Source: a virus (Duplodnaviria; Heunggongvirae; Uroviricota; Caudoviricetes). Taken from it: a stretch of 20,787 nt of DNA. This document shows, piece after piece, positions 6,906-17,992 of this stretch. The position numbers and the translations under genes are program-made. The DNA lies in the IMG/VR virus record IMGVR_UViG_2541047861_000013; one strand, given 5' to 3'. Under the pieces are notes generated by a model. That model was given only the letters and a program-made list of their open reading frames with translations. It did no database searches and had not been told where the DNA came from. Each line of letters opens with the position of its first letter. Positions within the stretch are counted from its first letter, which is position 1.

Positions 6906-6942
6906 TTGACATTTAACGCACGAATTATTACCTTTCAGGTAA
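6906..6942 (+). promoter_or_regulatory. Promoter-like TTGACA followed by a perfect TTACC-N5-GGTAA operator (6928-6942)
   Basis: TTGACA at 6906-6911; perfect 15-bp palindrome TTACCTTTCAGGTAA at 6928-6942. Which strand it serves (plus toward the tRNA, or minus toward the portal operon) is unresolved. Confidence 0.35.
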
Positions 6943-7264
6943 CCAAAGAATTCACTCCAGTTACTAATCTGACTGGCTTGTCGTTAAATTGAACAGGTGG
7001 GGTGAGCTTTTATTTTGAGCAGTACGGCGTATGGCACATGCGCCGATAGCGGTCTGGATACGTTTAAGGGGCACCCTCCCTTGCTCGGGCAAACGAACCA
7101 GGTAGCCGGAATGTGCAAGTCGAGCGGTTTTATTCCGCGCACGGGGATTCACCATCCCGGCGATTCGGTGTGACACCTCGGAAGAGACGAGGGTACAACG
7201 ATGAGAGCATTTATGGAGCCGCGACAAAGTGTGGCGCCTTAACAGGCTAAGTGCTCTCAGCGTT

Positions 7265-10120: not shown

Positions 10121-10153
10121 TAACCACCGTGGTAATAGTTACCGTTGTGGTAA
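10121..10153 (-). promoter_or_regulatory. Tandem operator-like sites at the terminase small-subunit start
   Basis: TAACCACCGTGGTAA (10121-10135, one mismatch) and TTACCGTTGTGGTAA (10139-10153, perfect), 18 bp apart, just downstream of a minus-strand terminator. Confidence 0.45.
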
Positions 10154-10162
10154 TAGTAACAT

Positions 10163-10190
10163 GCAAAATAAAGCCGCCATAGTTGGCGGC
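10163..10190 (-). terminator. Intrinsic terminator separating the nin-like genes from the packaging operon
   Basis: GCCGCC-atagtt-GGCGGC followed on the minus strand by UUUAUUUUG. Confidence 0.45.
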
Positions 10191-10195
10191 AGTAT

Positions 10196-10408
10196 TCAAA
10201 GTCCATCAAATTCATCGTAAAAACTCTCGTCAAGATACCCTTCCCATTTACCGCGAATGAAAATTACATCCTCGCCGCAAGGGTGCTGACTGTCGATAAC
10301 TATATCCCTCCTGGCGCAACCATACTTATGCATGAGAAATTTAACCTCTTTCGGAAAATTTGCTGAGTTATCTCTCATATCTTCAAGGTCGTAGCGTATT
10401 TTTGGCAT
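10196..10408 (-). CDS. Hypothetical small protein (70 aa)
   Basis: ATG at 10408 (MPKIRYDLEDM...) preceded by GAAGGTG; the alternative GTG at 10429 lies inside the 12-bp palindrome. Confidence 0.4.
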   Translation of the reverse strand: MPKIRYDLEDMRDNSANFPKEVKFLMHKYGCARRDIVIDSQHPCGEDVIFIRGKWEGYLDESFYDEFDGL

Positions 10409-12647: not shown

Positions 12648-12724
12648 TTACCCCTGAGGTAATTAAAAACCACATAAGACACGAAATCAATAGAGTTTAG
12701 AATATTTTGTTACCCAGCAGGTAA
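12648..12724 (-). promoter_or_regulatory. Promoter flanked by two perfect operator sites, driving the nin-like genes
   Basis: Minus-strand -35 TTGATT (plus 12685-12690), 17-bp spacer, -10 TTTAAT (12662-12667). TTACCCAGCAGGTAA (12710-12724) lies upstream of the -35; TTACCCCTGAGGTAA (12648-12662) lies between the -10 and the start codon. Confidence 0.5.
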
Positions 12725-12761: not shown

Positions 12762-13544
12762 TTACTTGATAAATCCTGCCGCCTTTCCCCGCCTGTATTC
12801 CTCCATCAGCCACTGCGCCGGTGTTATTCCCCCTAGGGTGGCGGCGTTAGGCATGCACCCGAAACTTCGCCCTGGTGGATGGTAAACGTCTCTCCCTGTG
12901 TCCGGAGGCGTACTCATTGGTTCTGGCTTTGCCTGTATGCTGATCACCGGATCGGGTATCTGCTGTCCGGAAGCCACCTTTTTCGCCCAATCATCGAGCA
13001 GCCTGCGCGCGTGTTTCTCAACCTCAATCTCGCTAAGCTGGCGCTGATACATTGCACGGCGGGTATCACATACGACCCAGTACATAACCGGATGTCGCCA
13101 CGGGAATCTTTCGGGACCACCAGGATATAAACTTTTTTCCTTGCTGTACCGGTGAAACTCCGCCATCACATCGTCAATGGTGACGCCAAGAACCATCTTG
13201 CTGTCTTTGCACCACTTGATGAATTGCCCAGGCGACGGCCAGAACGGAGATTCACTGGCGCGGGCGTGGCGCATACCAGCGTTAACCTGTTCCATTGTTG
13301 TGATCCCATTCTCCAGAAACGCAAGCATCCATTGTTTTCGAAATTCGTTTAGCTTTCCTTGCTCGCTGATAGCAGCGATGCTGCCTGGAAATGCAGCCTG
13401 TAACTGGACAAACATTTCGTTGAAAATTCTTGCAACCTGCTCCTTCTTTGCCCTTTCATCGTCAGCAGAAGCAACCGCCGTCGAGTGGTCATGCCCACCA
13501 CGAAAGCGATCGTACTCATTAAGAAGTTCTGGAGTTGATTTCAT
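12762..13544 (-). CDS. Lambda P-like replication protein (DnaB helicase loader)
   Basis: WMLAFLENGITTMEQVNAGMRHARASESPFWPSPGQFIKWC is near-identical to the lambda P segment as I recall it (WVLAFRENGITTMEQVNAGMRVARRQNRPFLPSPGQFVAWC); start set at the ATG (MKSTPELL) with GAGGTG SD. Confidence 0.75.
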   Translation of the reverse strand: MKSTPELLNEYDRFRGGHDHSTAVASADDERAKKEQVARIFNEMFVQLQAAFPGSIAAISEQGKLNEFRKQWMLAFLENGITTMEQVNAGMRHARASESPFWPSPGQFIKWCKDSKMVLGVTIDDVMAEFHRYSKEKSLYPGGPERFPWRHPVMYWVVCDTRRAMYQRQLSEIEVEKHARRLLDDWAKKVASGQQIPDPVISIQAKPEPMSTPPDTGRDVYHPPGRSFGCMPNAATLGGITPAQWLMEEYRRGKAAGFIK

Positions 13545-14352
13545 CCCACACCTCATCTATCCAGTCAGTGTTATGCCAGTCAAGGCTCTTTCTGACTTCA
13601 CCTGATTTCTGTCTACAGAACTGGATGCGCCTTGCCAGCTTCTGCTCCCACTGTGCCTGATGGTATGCCTTACCCTCAGCCATCCAGTAAATTCTGAACT
13701 CTGCAAGTTCCTGTGCCGTTGGCAGACTGTCCAGGTAGATTCCCTGCAATGAGCTTTTCCGAAGAAAGTCATCTGATGGCTGCCATTGTTCATGCATGAC
13801 AAATTTACCTAATTGCCCTGGCCCACCAGGAGGAACAAAGTTATTCATCACGGCGTTGTTTGCGCCGGGGTCATGAGGAACAGAATCCCCGGTTTTTGTC
13901 CTGCTCTCCCTCTCTTGGTTAAATGACTGGTTATATGACTGGTTCTGGATCCCGTTTTTGGGATCATTCAACATCCCGTTTTTGGGATCATTCAACATCC
14001 CGTTTTTGGGTATATTCCCGTTTTCGGTAACATTACCGTTTTCGGGTTCATTGCCCCCCTCCCGGTTGCCTTTAATGTTCCCGTTTTTGGTTATATTAAG
14101 AGAGAAAACCCGCACTCTTTTTGTCGCTCCCTTTCTCTCTCCGGTATCTGAAATAAGCCCCATTTTCATGAGCGATATAAGCCCGGCCTGCACGGTTTTT
14201 TTATTCAGGCAAGTGTCTTTAACGAGGCGTTCTATGCTGGGGTAGCAGAGGTTATATTCATCGGCTCTGTCAGCCATCGAGAGCAGTATGAGCTTTAATG
14301 ATGAGCTACCTGGATCTGTCTCCCAGGCCCAATCTGTTGCATGTCTGCTCAT
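13519..14352 (-). CDS. Lambda O-like replication initiator with origin iterons inside the gene
   Basis: Sits upstream of and overlapping the P-like gene; central Asn/Gly-rich repeats (NGMLNDPKNGMLNDPKNG) are encoded by the DNA iterons. Confidence 0.55.
   Translation of the reverse strand: MSRHATDWAWETDPGSSSLKLILLSMADRADEYNLCYPSIERLVKDTCLNKKTVQAGLISLMKMGLISDTGERKGATKRVRVFSLNITKNGNIKGNREGGNEPENGNVTENGNIPKNGMLNDPKNGMLNDPKNGIQNQSYNQSFNQERESRTKTGDSVPHDPGANNAVMNNFVPPGGPGQLGKFVMHEQWQPSDDFLRKSSLQGIYLDSLPTAQELAEFRIYWMAEGKAYHQAQWEQKLARRIQFCRQKSGEVRKSLDWHNTDWIDEVWDEINSRTS
13951..14091. repeat. Origin iterons: CCCGTTTTTGGG cores
   Basis: Three perfect copies at 24-bp spacing (13951, 13975, 13999) plus degenerate copies at 14017, 14035 and 14080, all within the O-like ORF. 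Confidence 0.6.
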
Positions 14353-14602: not shown

Positions 14603-14663
14603 ATTTTGTGCTGACACAAAAAAAAGATCAACCAGATTTGGTTTTTTATTACCTTTGAGGTAC
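14603..14663 (-). promoter_or_regulatory. Promoter with upstream operator-like site between cro and the replication genes
   Basis: Minus-strand -35 TTGATC (plus 14626-14631), 17-bp spacer, -10 CAAAAT (14603-14608); TTACCTTTGAGGTAC (14649-14663, one mismatch) 18 bp upstream of the -35. Confidence 0.35.
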
Positions 14664-14674
14664 GAATAGATATG

Positions 14675-14696
14675 AAAAGACCGCCGGGTGGCGGTC
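14675..14696 (-). terminator. Intrinsic terminator downstream of the Cro-like gene
   Basis: GACCGCC-acc c-GGCGGTC followed on the minus strand by UUUUCAU. Confidence 0.5.
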
Positions 14697-14718
14697 TACA
14701 GAGGGTTGTGGCTGGATA

Positions 14719-14949
14719 TCATGAGTAGAAGAAGTATGCCAGTTCTGCTTTTGAGCGCAGCCATTGTCTTGTTTTACAGGCTTTAAAAAGCCCATTCATC
14801 AATACTTTACCTGGCATTTTTCGCTTACCTGTTAAGTGAGTCTGGATATAGTGACTCGTCGTTCCGGCTTCCTGTGCGAAGGCTTCACGCTCATCCGGAG
14901 TAAGTGCAAGCCAGTGCTTTTTGAAATCGAAATGTCCGTTATCGCTCAT
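14719..14949 (-). CDS. Cro-like HTH regulator (76 aa)
   Basis: Divergent from the repressor gene across the operator region; small protein with a putative HTH; weak SD. Confidence 0.55.
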   Translation of the reverse strand: MSDNGHFDFKKHWLALTPDEREAFAQEAGTTSHYIQTHLTGKRKMPGKVLMNGLFKACKTRQWLRSKAELAYFFYS

Positions 14950-14985
14950 AGCTATTGCCTGATATTTATTTCAGATAATAAATAT

Positions 14986-15048
14986 TCACCCATAAGGTAA
15001 CAAAAATCAAGGATAGTTACCTATGAGGTGCATTTACCTGTTGGGTAA
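14986..15048. promoter_or_regulatory. Right-operator-like region with three TTACC-N5-GGTAA-type sites between the Cro-like and repressor genes
   Basis: TCACCCATAAGGTAA (14986-15000), TTACCTATGAGGTGC (15017-15031), TTACCTGTTGGGTAA (15034-15048, perfect); the last two are 17 bp apart. Confidence 0.6.
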
Positions 15049-15103
15049 TATTGCTTTAAATTGAATCATCTACTGATTCATATATGAGGCGATTTTCCAG
15101 AAA

Positions 15104-15688
15104 ATGAAAAGTATCCAGGACGTCCGCAGGCAAAATCTCAACGACTTGATCGACCGTGAATTCAATGGTGTTCAGACGCGGATGGCAGAAAAACTTGGAA
15201 CTCAGGCAAATCTGGTAAACCGCTGGGCTCTTGGCAAGAAGGTTATCGGCGACCAGGTTGCGCGAAAAATTGAAGCTGCCGCCAATAAACCCCGTAACTG
15301 GCTTGATATCGATCGCTCGCTTTCTCAGGAAGGTTTTCAGCCTGTCGGCCCAAGCGACATTGGTCAGCTGGCGGCTCACAACCTGGAACGCTGGATGAGC
15401 GAAAGCCGCGACCTTTCAACACAGGGAAAACTTCACCGCGCATCCGGCGTCGCCCAGGTGACAATCAGCCGCCTGTTAAACAATGAGGTCAGCGTTTCCA
15501 TTTCCACCCTGGAGAATGTTGCATCCGCATTCGGGCGTCACGGCTATGAATTACTGATTCACCCGCACGACCCTGCGACTATCAACTATGACCGCTCGCG
15601 CTACGCATTGTTACCCGAAACAGAGAAGGCAAAGATCGAAAGTTACATTGAATTTGTCATCAGCCAGAACGAAAAAAACAAACAATAA
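15104..15688 (+). CDS. Phage repressor, CI-equivalent, with two HTH (XRE-type) regions and no LexA-like peptidase domain
   Basis: N-terminal HTH (GVQTRMAEKLGTQANLVNRWALGKK) and a second HTH-like segment (ASGVAQVTISRLLNNEVSVSISTLENVASAFG); no Ser/Lys autoprotease signature; divergent from the Cro-like gene. Confidence 0.65.
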   Translation: MKSIQDVRRQNLNDLIDREFNGVQTRMAEKLGTQANLVNRWALGKKVIGDQVARKIEAAANKPRNWLDIDRSLSQEGFQPVGPSDIGQLAAHNLERWMSESRDLSTQGKLHRASGVAQVTISRLLNNEVSVSISTLENVASAFGRHGYELLIHPHDPATINYDRSRYALLPETEKAKIESYIEFVISQNEKNKQ

Positions 15689-15708
15689 AATCATATTTTT
15701 CAGTAAGT

Positions 15709-15733
15709 AAGCCGCCTCATGGCGGCTTTTTTA
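15709..15733 (+). terminator. Intrinsic terminator after the repressor gene
   Basis: GCCGCC-tcat-GGCGGC followed by TTTTTTA. Confidence 0.6.
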
Positions 15734-15745
15734 TTGCCAGCAAGA

Positions 15746-15822
15746 TTACCTTATGGGTAATTTTTTTAACTCATATCTATTGACATCAAACCAGATACGC
15801 ATAATCATTACCTCAACGGTAA
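15746..15822 (+). promoter_or_regulatory. Left-promoter-like region: TTGACA promoter flanked by two perfect operator sites
   Basis: TTACCTTATGGGTAA (15746-15760), -35 TTGACA (15780-15785), TTACCTCAACGGTAA (15808-15822); the -10 is ambiguous (CATAAT at 14-bp spacing or TAATCA at 16 bp). Confidence 0.55.
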
Positions 15823-15996: not shown

Positions 15997-16296
15997 ATGA
16001 ACGTTAATCAGCAGAAAAATCTTCAAAAAATCATGCAGGCATTCGACAAGGACTACCACCTGTCAGAACAGCTATATGACCGACAAGTTGAACTGATTGA
16101 GAGCATCCGACTTCATCAACTGTCATCAACTTTCGACGTTGTAACAGGCAAAGGCGTTCGTCAGGAAGTACTGGAGGCTGCTAAAGACAGCCCTGAGTTC
16201 GAAGAACTGATGGATGCCTATCGGCGAGAGGCAATGGCAATTATCGCCCGCTGGGATCTGGCGGATCAGCTTGATGGACAGAAGGACGCGGCATGA
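15997..16296 (+). CDS. Hypothetical protein (99 aa) immediately upstream of the exonuclease gene
   Basis: ATG at 15997 with GGGAGGG SD 6 nt upstream; stop overlaps the exonuclease start (ATGA). Confidence 0.45.
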   Translation: MNVNQQKNLQKIMQAFDKDYHLSEQLYDRQVELIESIRLHQLSSTFDVVTGKGVRQEVLEAAKDSPEFEELMDAYRREAMAIIARWDLADQLDGQKDAA

Positions 16297-17114
16297 AACC
16301 GGGAATTTATTTCGGCATCAGCAACGAAGACTACCACGCAGGTGACGGCGTGAGTAAGTCGCAACTGGACATGGTTGCCAAGAATCCGGCGCTTCTTAAA
16401 TGGGTTCAGGCAGCACCAGAAGACGAAGAGAAAAAGTCTGCATTGGATATGGGAACCGCATTGCACTGCCTGCTTCTGGAACCTGGAGAATTCGACAAAC
16501 GCTTCATCGTGTCACCGAAATTCGATCGTCGGACAAAACAAGGTAAAGCTGACGAAGAAGCATTTCTTCGTGATGTGGCGGATATGGGTATTACGGTACT
16601 TGATGTCGAGCAGTGGCGAAAACTTGAGCTCATGCGTGATAGCGCAATGGCTCATCCGGCGGCACGCTGGATGTTGGAAGCACCTGGTTACTGCGAAGCA
16701 TCAATGTACTGGAACGATGAAGAGACGGGTGAGTTGTGCCGAATTCGTCCAGACAAATGGCTGAACGAGCACAACGTGATCGTCGACGTGAAAAAGGTTG
16801 CAGATATGGACCGTTTTGCACGCCACATCGAGGAATTCCGCTACCACGTGCAGGACGCAATGTACCGCGAAGGCGCAACGAGGGTTACTGGTCAACCGCA
16901 TGGTTTTTTCTTTCTTGCCGTGAGCGAAAGCATTGATTGTGGTCGGTATCCGGTACGCGTGTTCGAGTTGGATGCGCCGGATGTCGATGCCGGGCACGCT
17001 CTGTTCCGCCGGGATCTGAATACCTATCACGAATGCCGCATAAATGATGAATGGGGCGGCGTGGAAATTATTAAACGCCCTGACTGGGCACGTAAACAGG
17101 ATATGTATGTATGA
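16293..17114 (+). CDS. Recombination exonuclease, PD-(D/E)XK family (RecE C-terminal-domain-like)
   Basis: ...CRIRPDKW...IVDVKKV... gives a PD...D.K signature; translationally coupled to the downstream annealing-protein gene (ATGA). Confidence 0.65.
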   Translation: MKPGIYFGISNEDYHAGDGVSKSQLDMVAKNPALLKWVQAAPEDEEKKSALDMGTALHCLLLEPGEFDKRFIVSPKFDRRTKQGKADEEAFLRDVADMGITVLDVEQWRKLELMRDSAMAHPAARWMLEAPGYCEASMYWNDEETGELCRIRPDKWLNEHNVIVDVKKVADMDRFARHIEEFRYHVQDAMYREGATRVTGQPHGFFFLAVSESIDCGRYPVRVFELDAPDVDAGHALFRRDLNTYHECRINDEWGGVEIIKRPDWARKQDMYV

Positions 17115-17992
17115 GCAATGATATCGCAATCACATCACAACCAGGCGCAACTGTAGGCACTGCTGCGGCAATCTTCAGCCCCGAGGGCATGAATCAACTG
17201 GTGCGTTTCGCGGAGTTGATGTCACAAAGCAAAGCGACTGTACCGAAACATCTTGAAGGCAAACCTGCCGATTGCCTGGCGGTGACTATGCAGGCGGCAC
17301 AGTGGGGAATGAACCCTTTCGCCGTGGCGCAGAAAACGCATGTGGTAAACGGAACGTTAGGCTACGAAGCACAGTTGGTAAACGCGGTCGTATCCTCTTC
17401 CAGCCTGCTGGCGACACGCCTGAATTATCGCTGGAGCGGTGACTGGTCGAATGTTAACGGCAAAACAGATAAATCACCGAATCTGACGGTAACTGTGTCA
17501 GCAGTTCTTAAAGGTGAAACAGAACCCCGTGAGCTTACCATCAGTATGGCGCAAGCCGGAGTGCGTAACTCTCCATTGTGGGAACAGGATCCGCGCCAGC
17601 AGCTTGCCTATCTTTGCACGAAACGATGGGCTCGCCTGCACGCTCCTGATGTGCTTCTCGGTGTTTACACCCCTGACGAATTACAGGAAACGGCACCGCG
17701 CGTTGAGCGAGACATTACTCCGCAAACAACTACTGCTGCGGGAATGAACAGTCTGATCAACGCTAAACCAGTGAAAAAGCCTGATGAGCAAACTCGTAAA
17801 GCGGATAGCCGTGATCCAGAAGAAATGCTGATGGCCTTTACCAGCGCAGCGATGAATTACAGCACTGTCTCCGAACTGGATAAGGCTTACAAATACATTG
17901 CACAAAAACTTTCAGATGATGACGAACTGCTGGCAAAAGCCACCGACGTTTACAGCGTTCGTCGGGAAGAATTAAACGAAACATCTATGTAA
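17111..17992 (+). CDS. Single-strand annealing protein, Bet/RecT family
   Basis: C-terminal ...ETAPRVERDITPQ... matches the lambda Bet segment (...QPERDITPVNDE...) from memory; paired with the exonuclease. Confidence 0.65.
   Translation: MSNDIAITSQPGATVGTAAAIFSPEGMNQLVRFAELMSQSKATVPKHLEGKPADCLAVTMQAAQWGMNPFAVAQKTHVVNGTLGYEAQLVNAVVSSSSLLATRLNYRWSGDWSNVNGKTDKSPNLTVTVSAVLKGETEPRELTISMAQAGVRNSPLWEQDPRQQLAYLCTKRWARLHAPDVLLGVYTPDELQETAPRVERDITPQTTTAAGMNSLINAKPVKKPDEQTRKADSRDPEEMLMAFTSAAMNYSTVSELDKAYKYIAQKLSDDDELLAKATDVYSVRREELNETSM

What the first reader, a model, noticed from the sequence alone, without database searches (positions are those of the whole stretch)
14986..15822. Immunity switch built on a 15-bp palindromic operator, TTACC-N5-GGTAA
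Three sites lie between the divergent Cro-like and repressor genes, and two perfect sites bracket the TTGACA promoter downstream of the repressor terminator. The motif is 10 specified bases and a palindrome, so it is very unlikely to recur by chance in about 21 kb. This defines the probable repressor (and Cro) recognition sequence for this phage.
Basis: seen in the sequence. Interest (0 to 1): 0.45.

Follow-up and report, generated by a model that had tools for sequence, protein, structure and literature searches.

The report
Known phage repressor operator, genome-wide
The repeated 15-bp palindrome TTACC-N5-GGTAA is real and is almost certainly the binding site of this phiV10/epsilon15-type phage's repressor, but the same motif is already annotated as the repressor site in phage epsilon15, and it guards nearly every promoter in the window rather than only the immunity switch.

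Summary
TTACC-N5-GGTAA occurs 7 times perfectly and 3 times with one mismatch in the window, against about 0 and 0.3 expected by chance.

The motif is not confined to 14986-15822. Six further sites lie upstream of the portal operon, terS, the post-replication early operon and the replication operon. All lie outside genes, at promoters.

The window is about 98% identical to E. coli phage phiV10 (genus Uetakevirus). Its 194-aa repressor is a homologue of the crystallised Salmonella phage SPC32H Rep (PDB 5D50). That protein is a tetramer inactivated by an antirepressor, not a lambda-CI-type self-cleaving protein.

The GenBank record of epsilon15 already annotates the same motif as "repressor" binding sites at equivalent positions. 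Across seven genomes whose Rep falls to 42% identity, the half-sites, the Rep recognition helix (NLVNRW) and a 62-bp spacing of operator pairs are all conserved. The pairs are centred at about -62 and +1 of a TTGAC-type promoter.

Verdict: a real, correctly interpreted and already known kind of operator. The scope is wider than reported, Cro binding is untested, and no binding data for this phage could be read. Interest is low.

The parts
15104..15688 (+). rep: 194-aa prophage repressor. It has an N-terminal HTH DNA-binding domain (about residues 1-70, recognition helix NLVNRW at 36-41), a middle dimerisation domain that carries the Pfam HTH_3 hit (106-147), and a C-terminal tetramerisation and Ant-binding domain.
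   Evidence: phmmer hit to PDB 5D50 SPC32H Repressor, E=4e-42 over residues 1-190. Pfam finds HTH_3 and YdaS-like HTH only, no peptidase domain. Alignment A1 gives the invariant helix. Domain names are from PMC9986798.
14719..14949 (-). Cro-like 76-aa HTH protein, divergent from rep.
   Evidence: phrog_35 'transcriptional repressor', E=5.6e-13. AF2 model is five helices, pLDDT 81.6. Best fold neighbours are YdaS, 434 repressor and C-proteins, TM 0.55-0.62, with weak E-values. 58-84% identical across the genus.
14986..15000 (.). Operator in the cro-rep intergenic region, cro-proximal. One mismatch (TCACC). It overlaps the -35 and spacer of the predicted cro promoter.
   Evidence: The one-mismatch TCACC/GGTGA half is present at this position in 6 of the 7 genomes (BUCT711 has GGTGT, 2 mismatches).
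15017..15031 (.). Middle operator, weak (GGTGC half, 2 mismatches), 17 bp from the next site.
   Evidence: The GGTGC form is conserved in the phiV10 and Enterobacter group; the site is perfect in epsilon15, SPC32H and BUCT711.
15034..15048 (.). rep-proximal operator, perfect.
14975..15003 (-). Predicted cro promoter, TTGTTA-17-TATTAT.
   Evidence: Consensus scan. Not experimentally mapped.
15709..15728 (+). rep terminator.
   Evidence: Also annotated in phiV10.
15746..15760 (.). Upstream operator of the early-left promoter, centre about -62.
15780..15808 (+). Early-left promoter, TTGACA-17-AATCAT. It drives gp37/gp36-like genes, recE and recT.
   Evidence: The -35 'ctaTTGAC' is conserved in all 7 genomes.
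15808..15822 (.). Downstream operator of the early-left promoter, centre about +1. Its first T is the last T of the -10.
14649..14663 (.). Weak operator (GTACC, 1 mismatch) after the cro terminator and upstream of the replication-operon promoter TTGATC-17-CAAAAT (14631-14603, minus strand).
14678..14697 (-). Terminator after the cro-like gene.
12710..12724 (.). Upstream operator of the promoter between the P-like gene and the DUF1064 gene, centre about -62.
12662..12690 (-). Promoter TTGATT-17-TTTAAT for the DUF1064/eae/ead operon.
   Evidence: Ungapped alignment to the early-left promoter module. An alternative, TTGATA-16-CAAAAT, was found by the scan.
12648..12662 (.). Downstream operator, centre about +1. 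Its 5-nt spacer holds the Shine-Dalgarno sequence of the DUF1064 gene.
10139..10153 (.). Operator upstream of terS (distal), just after the terminator at 10173-10190.
   Evidence: Equivalent to the annotated epsilon15 site at 12-27.
10121..10135 (.). Operator (1 mismatch) abutting the probable terS start codon (ATG 10121-10119), 18 bp from the distal site.
   Evidence: Equivalent to the epsilon15 site at 30-44.
6928..6942 (.). Operator upstream of the gp3-like/portal late operon.
   Evidence: Equivalent to the annotated epsilon15 repressor site at 2931-2947.

Best explanation
TTACC-N5-GGTAA (extended consensus a-TTACC-NNWNN-GGTAA-t) is the operator of the prophage repressor Rep of a phiV10/epsilon15-type podovirus (genus Uetakevirus).

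How it most likely works. Rep reads each 5-bp half-site with one N-terminal helix-turn-helix domain, so a pair of domains covers one palindrome. Rep is a tetramer, so it offers two such pairs.

The operators are dispersed. Each transcription unit is insulated by a terminator and has its own Rep-controlled promoter:
- The cro promoter has an operator in its -35/spacer region, with two more operators 17 bp apart next to rep.
- Two early promoters, early-left and post-replication, each have a pair of operators 62 bp apart, centred at about -62 and +1. The replication-operon promoter shares the layout only in part: a weak upstream operator at about -60 and a degenerate partial downstream site 60 bp away.
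- The terS and portal late operons have one or two operators at or just upstream of the start of the first gene.

Occupied operators exclude RNA polymerase and keep the prophage silent. Induction is not by RecA-stimulated self-cleavage. It works through a small LexA-controlled antirepressor (Ant), encoded outside this window, that pulls Rep off the DNA.

What is shown here: the existence of the motif, its statistics, its positions, its conservation and the homologies. What is inferred: the identity of the binding protein (from the epsilon15 annotation, from homology and from secondary literature), the promoter positions, and bridging of the 62-bp pairs by one tetramer.
For: Statistics and position:
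- 7 perfect sites against 0 expected, and 10 with up to 1 mismatch against 0.3 expected.
- All sites lie outside genes, next to promoters or terminators.

Identity of the phage and of Rep:
- The window is about 98% identical to phiV10.
- Rep matches the PDB 5D50/5D4Z SPC32H Repressor at E=4e-42.
- Pfam finds no peptidase domain.

Prior annotation and conservation:
- The epsilon15 record AY150271.2 annotates 7 'protein_bind repressor' features, and all coincide with this motif.
- Seven genomes with Rep identity from 99% down to 42% each carry 8-11 perfect sites at equivalent positions.
- In ungapped alignments of the two paired promoters, half-site columns are invariant 20/20, against 0-2/10 for operator spacers and 19-26/66 for other columns.
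- The recognition helix N36-L-V-N-R-W41 is invariant, and the DNA-binding domain is the best-conserved part of Rep.
- In 120 IMG/VR loci, neighbouring perfect sites are spaced 62 bp 141 times, 63 bp 22 times and 61 bp once.

Literature:
- Rep of SPC32H binds palindromic sites as a tetramer and is dismantled by tetrameric Ant (PMC9638917).
- Its domains are a DNA-binding domain, a middle dimerisation domain and a tetramerisation domain (PMC9986798).
- Ant is controlled by LexA (PMC7380047).
- Overexpressing the 99.5%-identical vB_EcoP_ZX5 repressor abolished free phage and cut holin and endolysin mRNA by more than 99.9% (PMC9782041).

Ant in the lineage:
- phiV10 carries an Ant homologue 82-86% identical to those of epsilon15 and SPC32H, with a canonical LexA box CTGTATAAATACACAG just upstream.
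Against: - No footprint or gel-shift on this motif could be read. Kropinski 2007, Kim & Ryu 2013 and Kim 2016 were not held.
- The epsilon15 'repressor' features may themselves be computational calls.
- The Cro-like protein is always present alongside Rep and is even better conserved, so conservation alone cannot say which protein reads the motif.
- The rep promoter could not be located convincingly.
- 62 bp of straight DNA is about 210 A, while the two dimerisation-domain pairs of the Rep tetramer are reported about 100 A apart (PMC9986798). Bridging by one tetramer would therefore need DNA bending or long linkers.
- The Ant gene and its LexA box lie outside the window.
Confidence: 0.85

Rival explanations
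1. The motif is read mainly or only by the 76-aa Cro-like protein, acting as a lytic-phase repressor of early promoters, and Rep recognises something else.
For: The Cro-like protein is an HTH protein. It is more conserved than Rep, at 58-84% against 42-78%, which matches the invariance of the motif. In the lambda, 434 and P22 paradigms Cro shares the repressor's operators.
Against: The epsilon15 record assigns the sites to the repressor. No other over-represented palindrome was seen in the control regions that Rep could use. Sites at late-gene promoters make sense for a prophage repressor. Rep's recognition helix is invariant. The shared-operator version, in which both proteins bind, is not a true rival and is quite likely.
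Confidence: 0.05
2. The upstream sites centred near -62 are activator sites at the class I position, like CRP at -61.5. Some occurrences would then stimulate transcription, for example Rep activating its own or other promoters, rather than repress it.
For: The inferred centre at -62 coincides with the classical class I activator position. A T-rich tract follows the upstream operator.
Against: The same promoters carry a second, identical site over +1, which is a repressing position. The promoters already have near-consensus -35 hexamers (TTGACA). Transcription start sites are inferred, not mapped. Overexpressing the repressor silences lytic genes.
Confidence: 0.07
3. The recurrences reflect duplication of one promoter cassette, or chance palindromes, and are not protein-binding sites.
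For: The two 62-bp promoter modules share the same layout, with the post-cro promoter a partial third copy, so they could be paralogous copies.
Against: Only the half-sites and the promoter hexamers are conserved between cassettes and between genomes, while the spacers are free to vary. Sites also occur singly or as 17-18-bp pairs at promoters with a different layout (terS, portal, cro-rep). Shuffles expect 0 sites.
Confidence: 0.02

Closest known systems
Epsilon15 gp38 and SPC32H Rep with antirepressor Ant (Uetakevirus immunity system; PDB 5D50, 5D4Z)
   Same: The repressor is homologous over its full length (E=4e-42). The operator motif TTACC-N5-GGTAA is identical and sits at equivalent positions. 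Gene order is the same (cro-like gene divergent from rep, then terminator and early-left promoter). There is no self-cleavage domain. An Ant homologue with a LexA box is present in the 98%-identical phiV10 genome.
   Different: Rep is only 42% identical overall (54% in the DNA-binding domain). In the phiV10 and Enterobacter group the middle cro-rep operator is degenerate (GGTGC). Epsilon15 and SPC32H have a third early-left site 76 bp further downstream that is absent here. The epsilon15 record does not annotate the three cro-rep sites or the downstream partner of the post-replication pair.
Lambda, 434 and P22 CI/Cro OR-OL switch
   Same: There are three palindromic operators of graded quality between divergent repressor and cro-like genes, overlapping the cro promoter, and a second operator set at an early-left promoter. 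The HTH fold is of the lambda-repressor type.
   Different: There is no S24 peptidase domain and no RecA-mediated cleavage. Rep is a tetramer built on a different oligomerisation domain. The operators are dispersed to late and replication promoters. Transcription units are separated by terminators, each with its own promoter, rather than one antiterminated operon. Half-sites are separated by 5 nt.
P1 C1 and N15/PY54 CB repressors (dispersed-operator immunity)
   Same: One repressor controls many operators scattered around the genome, including replication and late functions. Antirepressors take part in induction.
   Different: The proteins are unrelated. P1 operators are asymmetric 17-mers. 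This comparison rests on general knowledge and was not tested here.
Rco of Bacillus plasmid pLS20 (PDB 8BNY)
   Same: It has an N-terminal HTH domain plus a C-terminal p53-like tetramerisation domain, and it is said to be an analogue of SPC32H Rep, with DNA looping between operator clusters and an antirepressor (PMC9986798).
   Different: It has no middle dimerisation domain and different operators, and it controls a conjugation switch rather than a phage. Only a weak, non-significant hit from the Cro-like profile was seen here (E=0.21).

Membership tests
Uetakevirus Rep-Ant immunity system (epsilon15 gp38 / SPC32H Rep) | Repressor homologous to SPC32H Rep over the DNA-binding, dimerisation and tetramerisation domains | tested here: met
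   phmmer to 5D50_A, E=4e-42, residues 1-190. Alignment A1 shows that F184, the equivalent of the SPC32H tetramer-interface residue F190, is invariant, and that F187 corresponds to Y181 (interface residues from PMC9986798).
Uetakevirus Rep-Ant immunity system (epsilon15 gp38 / SPC32H Rep) | Palindromic operators identical to the annotated epsilon15 repressor sites, at equivalent positions | tested here: met
   The epsilon15 protein_bind features at 12-27, 2931-47, 19895-911, 32479-94, 32554-70, 32616-32 and 35906-22 all contain TTACC-N5-GGTAA. Window sites at 10139, 6928, 15746/15808 and 12710 are their positional equivalents.
Uetakevirus Rep-Ant immunity system (epsilon15 gp38 / SPC32H Rep) | Repressor lacks a LexA-like self-cleavage (S24) domain | tested here: met
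   Pfam scan finds only HTH families.
Uetakevirus Rep-Ant immunity system (epsilon15 gp38 / SPC32H Rep) | Small antirepressor gene (ant) under LexA control | tested here: inconclusive
   It is not in the window, because the ant region lies beyond the window's ends. In phiV10, which is 98% identical to the window, p24 is 82-86% identical to the epsilon15 and SPC32H Ant proteins and has the LexA box CTGTATAAATACACAG about 20 bp upstream of its ATG.
Uetakevirus Rep-Ant immunity system (epsilon15 gp38 / SPC32H Rep) | Rep binds the operator as a tetramer and is released by Ant | not testable with these tools
   Known only from secondary descriptions of Kim et al. 2016 (PMC9638917, PMC9986798). It needs biochemistry.
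Lambda-type CI/Cro switch | Three operators between divergent repressor and cro genes, overlapping their promoters | tested here: met
   Sites at 14986, 15017 and 15034. The first overlaps the predicted cro promoter.
Lambda-type CI/Cro switch | Repressor with a C-terminal S24 peptidase domain, inactivated by RecA-stimulated self-cleavage | tested here: not met
   No Peptidase_S24 hit. The C-terminal part is homologous to the SPC32H Rep dimerisation and tetramerisation domains.
Lambda-type CI/Cro switch | Operators confined to OL and OR, with downstream genes reached by antitermination | tested here: not met
   Operators are found at six promoter regions. Terminators at 15709, 14678 and 10173 each precede an operator.

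The most novel reading that the evidence does not exclude
The 62-bp operator pair is a structural module. One Rep tetramer, or an octamer, would bind the -62 and +1 operators on the same face of the helix (about 6 turns apart) and clamp the promoter in a very small loop. The module is used at two early promoters, with a partial third copy (upstream operator at about -60, degenerate partner) at the replication promoter, and is held almost invariant (62 bp, rarely 63) across the whole genus.

Together with the invariant operator and the well-conserved Cro-like and Ant proteins, this would make all Uetakeviruses of E. coli, Salmonella, Enterobacter and Klebsiella a single immunity group, unlike the many immunity types of lambdoid phages. 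I could not check whether Kim et al. 2016 already described the bridging.
Probability: 0.3. Interest if true: 0.4.

Novelty: already known. Interest (0 to 1): 0.2.

Why it matters
Its value is mainly for annotation. phiV10-type prophages are very common in E. coli: at least 80 IMG/VR contigs carry a Rep 99-100% identical to this one. Yet neither the phiV10 records nor the 2022 vB_EcoP_ZX5 study lists the operators, and that study only speculated that the repressor acts at 'PL'.

The site map given here names the promoters under direct repressor control. These include the terminase, portal and replication operons. It also corrects a probable over-extended terS start.

The strict 62-bp pairing gives a simple, testable prediction about how the tetrameric Rep engages DNA. 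phiV10 derivatives are used as O157:H7 reporter phages (my own knowledge), so defined operators could be useful for engineering them.

Tried and rejected
1. Primary papers. I tried Kropinski 2007 (DOI and PMC2698709), Kim & Ryu 2013 (PMC3807360) and Kim 2016 (PMC4983836 and DOI). None is held. Direct binding evidence therefore comes only from secondary citations.

2. Literature searches for the motif string, for phiV10 with 'operator', for Uetakevirus and for SPC32H with 'operator' found no paper that defines the operator.

3. Covariation between Rep's recognition helix and the operator could not be tested.
- The search for related loci with the Rep alignment used the recognition helix itself as a search pattern and returned only 99-100% identical copies.
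- The search for homologous proteins with the DNA-binding domain returned only near-identical fragments.
- So no relative with an altered helix was obtained.

4. The idea that immunity specificity has diversified through Rep-Ant pairing is rejected. Ant is 66-87% identical across the genus, which is better conserved than Rep. Rep's C-terminal domain is not unusually divergent.

5. Relatedness of the Cro-like protein to Rep's DNA-binding domain: hhalign aligns the HTH regions in register, but E=0.067 and probability 0.8% are not significant.

6. A second operator 62 bp downstream of 14649: only a degenerate TAACCgtaatCCCAA at 60 bp, so it is not claimed.

7. The rep promoter: no convincing sigma-70 match was found (plus manual inspection), so it is left open.

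8. LexA boxes in the window at 2915 and 7457 are compatible with chance, since 4 of 100 shuffles reach 2 matches.
Full report

Yes. An exact scan of both strands finds seven perfect TTACC-N5-GGTAA sites in the 20,787-bp window, while 100 dinucleotide-preserving shuffles gave none. Allowing one mismatch gives ten sites against 0.30 expected.

Within the reported interval the sites are:
- 14986-15000, TCACC...GGTAA, one mismatch
- 15017-15031, TTACC...GGTGC, two mismatches
- 15034-15048, perfect
- 15746-15760, perfect
- 15808-15822, perfect

The first three lie between a 76-aa gene on the minus strand (14719-14949) and the 194-aa HTH gene on the plus strand (15104-15688). The last two flank TTGACA (15780-15785), downstream of a terminator at 15709-15728. 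The coordinates and the description are therefore correct.

**2.

The motif is not confined to the immunity region. Further sites are:

| Site | Quality | Location |
|---|---|---|
| 6928 | perfect | upstream of the gp3-like/portal operon |
| 10139 | perfect | upstream of terS |
| 10121 | one mismatch | 18 bp from 10139, abutting the terS ATG |
| 12710 and 12648 | both perfect, 62 bp apart | between the lambda-P-like gene and the DUF1064 gene |
| 14649 | one mismatch | after the terminator that follows the cro-like gene |

Against a deliberately generous ORF map covering 93.2% of the window, 9 of 11 sites lie completely outside ORFs. The two exceptions sit in a TTG-initiated 5' extension of terS that also contains a rho-independent terminator, so that extension is most unlikely to be translated. 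The extra sites strengthen the operator reading.

**3. What the window is**

The region is 98% identical to Escherichia phage phiV10 and its close relatives (typing phages 9 and 10, vB_EcoP_ZX5, TL-2011b and others), which belong to the genus Uetakevirus of epsilon15-like podoviruses.

Gene content around the sites:
- On one side are the cro-like gene, a small phrog_1081 protein, a DnaT/O-like initiator with internal iterons, a lambda-P-like protein, a DUF1064 protein and eae/ead-like genes, followed by terS, terL, the portal gene and the head genes.
- On the other side are rep, two small ORFs, a RecE-like nuclease, RecT and, further on, the integrase.

**4. The repressor**

The 194-aa protein matches the crystallised repressor of Salmonella phage SPC32H (PDB 5D50 and 5D4Z) at E=4e-42 over residues 1-190. 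Pfam finds only HTH domains and no S24 peptidase.

According to PMC9986798, SPC32H Rep has an N-terminal DNA-binding domain, a middle dimerisation domain and a C-terminal tetramerisation domain that also binds the antirepressor Ant. The Pfam HTH_3 hit at residues 106-147 therefore lies in the dimerisation domain, not in the DNA-reading one.

PMC9638917 summarises Kim et al. 2016. Rep binds palindromic sites as a tetramer, with each DNA-binding pair formed by subunits from different dimers. Tetrameric Ant breaks the tetramer. PMC7380047 cites Kim & Ryu 2013 for LexA-controlled Ant synthesis.

The ant gene lies outside this window. phiV10 does carry a homologue, 82-86% identical to epsilon15 gp19 and SPC32H Ant, with a canonical LexA box (CTGTATAAATACACAG) just upstream of its start codon.

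In vB_EcoP_ZX5, whose repressor is 99.5% identical to the one here, overexpression abolished free phage and lowered holin and endolysin transcripts by more than 99.9% (PMC9782041). That paper defines no operator.

**5. Is the motif already known?**

Yes, for the genus. GenBank AY150271.2 (epsilon15) carries seven 'protein_bind, repressor, lysogeny' features. Every one coincides with a TTACC-N5-GGTAA match. They lie upstream of terS, upstream of gp3/portal, between gp19 (ant) and the tailspike gene, three downstream of the repressor gene, and one after the replication gene. These are the positional equivalents of the window's sites at 10139, 6928, 15746/15808 and 12710.

The phiV10 records annotate terminators but no operators. 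The epsilon15 record does not mark the three sites in its own cro-rep intergenic region (33341, 33358, 33388) or the downstream partner at 35969.

**6. Comparative evidence**

I scanned seven genomes: the window, phiV10, Enterobacter phages Tyrion and BUCT554, Klebsiella phage BUCT711, epsilon15 and SPC32H. Rep identity to the window runs 99, 78, 75, 45, 42 and 42%. Each genome has 8-11 perfect sites in the same relative positions.

The two paired promoters align without gaps across the genomes, with the single exception of BUCT711's early-left pair, whose operators are 63 rather than 62 bp apart. The order is always the same:
- a terminator T-run
- the upstream operator
- about 19 nt
- the -35 element 'ctaTTGAc'
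- a 17-nt spacer
- a -10 hexamer whose last T is the first base of the downstream operator

In a non-redundant subset, half-site columns are invariant 20/20 in each alignment. Operator spacers are invariant at 0-2/10 columns and other columns at 19-26/66. The symmetrised profile of 44 perfect sites adds only weak preferences: A at -1, T at +16 and W at the centre.

On the protein side, the recognition helix N36-L-V-N-R-W41 is invariant. The DNA-binding domain is the best-conserved part of Rep, at 54-56% where the dimerisation domain is 31-42%. An invariant operator together with an invariant recognition helix is what a Rep operator predicts.

**7. Geometry and likely mechanism**

Taking the transcription start as 7 nt after the -10, operator centres fall as follows:
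- at -62 and +1 for the early-left promoter (15746 and 15808)
- at -62 and +1 for the post-replication promoter (12710 and 12648)
- at -60 for the weak site at 14649, upstream of TTGATC-17-CAAAAT
- at -25 for 14986, inside the predicted cro promoter TTGTTA-17-TATTAT

Most contigs are about 40 kb, and 89 of the loci encode a Rep homologue of 40-100% identity. Most of the rest are truncated Uetakevirus loci. Among neighbouring perfect sites in these loci the spacing is 62 bp 141 times, 63 bp 22 times and 61 bp once. Close pairs are 17 bp (27 times) or 18 bp (5 times) apart.

Sixty-two base pairs is about six helical turns, so paired operators face the same side of the helix. My inference is that the two DNA-binding pairs of a Rep tetramer, or two interacting tetramers, occupy both operators cooperatively, occluding the start site and the upstream promoter region. 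This is not shown.

It has a geometric difficulty. 62 bp of straight DNA is about 210 A, whereas the dimerisation-domain pairs are reported about 100 A apart (PMC9986798), so bending or long linkers would be needed.

Each early unit is preceded by a terminator and has its own operator-controlled promoter. The late terS and portal operons carry operators too. The system therefore works as a dispersed regulon rather than a lambda-style pair of antiterminated operons.

**8. The Cro-like protein**

The 76-aa product hits phrog_35 'transcriptional repressor' at E=5.6e-13. It folds in silico (single sequence, pLDDT 81.6) into five helices. Its best structural neighbours are YdaS, 434 repressor and controller C-proteins, at TM 0.55-0.62, but the E-values are not significant.

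It is 58-84% identical across the genus, with an invariant AGTTSHYIQ-HLT segment. 'Cro-like' is therefore reasonable by position and fold. Whether it reads the same palindrome is untested. A profile comparison with Rep's DNA-binding domain is in register but not significant (E=0.067).

**9. Comparison with known systems, and novelty**

The locus is a member of the epsilon15/SPC32H Rep-Ant immunity system. Homology, operator identity and position, and absence of a cleavage domain were tested and met. Ant and LexA control were confirmed only in the near-identical phiV10 genome. Tetrameric binding is not testable here.

The locus works like a lambda switch at the cro-rep region, but it fails two defining features of that family: the S24 self-cleavage domain and the confinement of operators to OL and OR. 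Functionally it resembles dispersed-operator systems such as P1 C1 and N15 CB (my own knowledge, not tested).

Because the same motif is already annotated as the repressor site in epsilon15, I rate the finding as already known. What is new is limited to three things: a complete site list for a phiV10-type genome, the three cro-rep sites, and the quantification of the 62-bp rule.

**10. Verdict**

The feature is real and correctly interpreted. Its scope is wider than reported, Cro binding is unproven, and it is of low surprise. Confidence that the motif is the Rep operator is 0.85.

Noticed in passing
window 13949-14101: Six copies of an 18-24-nt direct repeat (ATCCCGTTTTTGGGATCATTCAAC and variants such as TTCCCGTTTTCGGTAAC and TTACCGTTTTCGGGTTC) lie inside the DnaT/O-like replication gene (13519-14352, minus strand). 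This is probably the origin of replication, with iterons as in lambda O. Some copies resemble operator half-sites. Two copies were also called 'terminator-like' at 13959 and 13983.
   Followed up: partly
window 10121-10199 (phiV10 NC_007804 41-119): The phiV10 annotation starts terS at a TTG, so the CDS would include a rho-independent terminator and both operators. By comparison with epsilon15, where terS starts right after the sites and is 198 aa, the real start is probably ATG 10121-10119, which also gives 198 aa.
   Followed up: partly
window 16293-17992: The RecE-like nuclease (273 aa) and RecT (293 aa) are separate, overlapping ORFs here and in the Enterobacter and Klebsiella relatives. 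phiV10 p37 is annotated as a single 586-aa RecE-RecT fusion. That could be a real fusion or a frameshift in the phiV10 record.
   Followed up: no
L028 589-688; L099 7882-7959; L110 323-423: Low-GC phage contigs unrelated to Uetakevirus carry 3-5 perfect TTACC-N5-GGTAA sites between divergent XRE-type HTH genes. The same palindrome therefore seems to serve as an operator in other phage immunity regions.
   Followed up: partly
L017 3828-3905; L058 7251-7387: The motif occurs as tandem 18-23-bp repeats (GGTTACCGTTTTGGTAACC) in or next to a replication-protein-like ORF. These look like origin iterons rather than operators.
   Followed up: no
phiV10 L007 26870; epsilon15 L002 26882; SPC32H L003 26960; Tyrion L004 28568 (outside the window): A one-mismatch site, GGTATTACC-N5-GGTATAC, is conserved just upstream of the integrase gene in the attP region of all relatives. 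It could be a Rep site controlling int, or an unrelated attP palindrome.
   Followed up: no
window 12648-12662: The 5-nt spacer of this operator (TTACCTCAGGGGTAAatcATG on the minus strand) contains the Shine-Dalgarno sequence of the DUF1064 gene, so bound Rep sits over both the transcription start and the ribosome-binding region.
   Followed up: no
window 14986-15000 and equivalents in 6 relatives: The cro-proximal operator carries the same single T-to-C change (TCACC/GGTGA) in 6 of the 7 genomes (BUCT711 has a 2-mismatch GGTGT half), which suggests a deliberately weaker site. TCACC is also the core of the lambda operator half-site (TATCACC), although the half-site spacing differs (the lambda consensus is from my own knowledge).
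   Followed up: no
window 6964-7227 (minus strand): This 87-aa ORF lies in the 433-bp gap between the p04-like and gp3-like genes. It has no annotated counterpart in phiV10, where locus tag p05 is absent from the record. It is probably not a gene, so the gap is a long regulatory region holding the 6928 operator.
   Followed up: no
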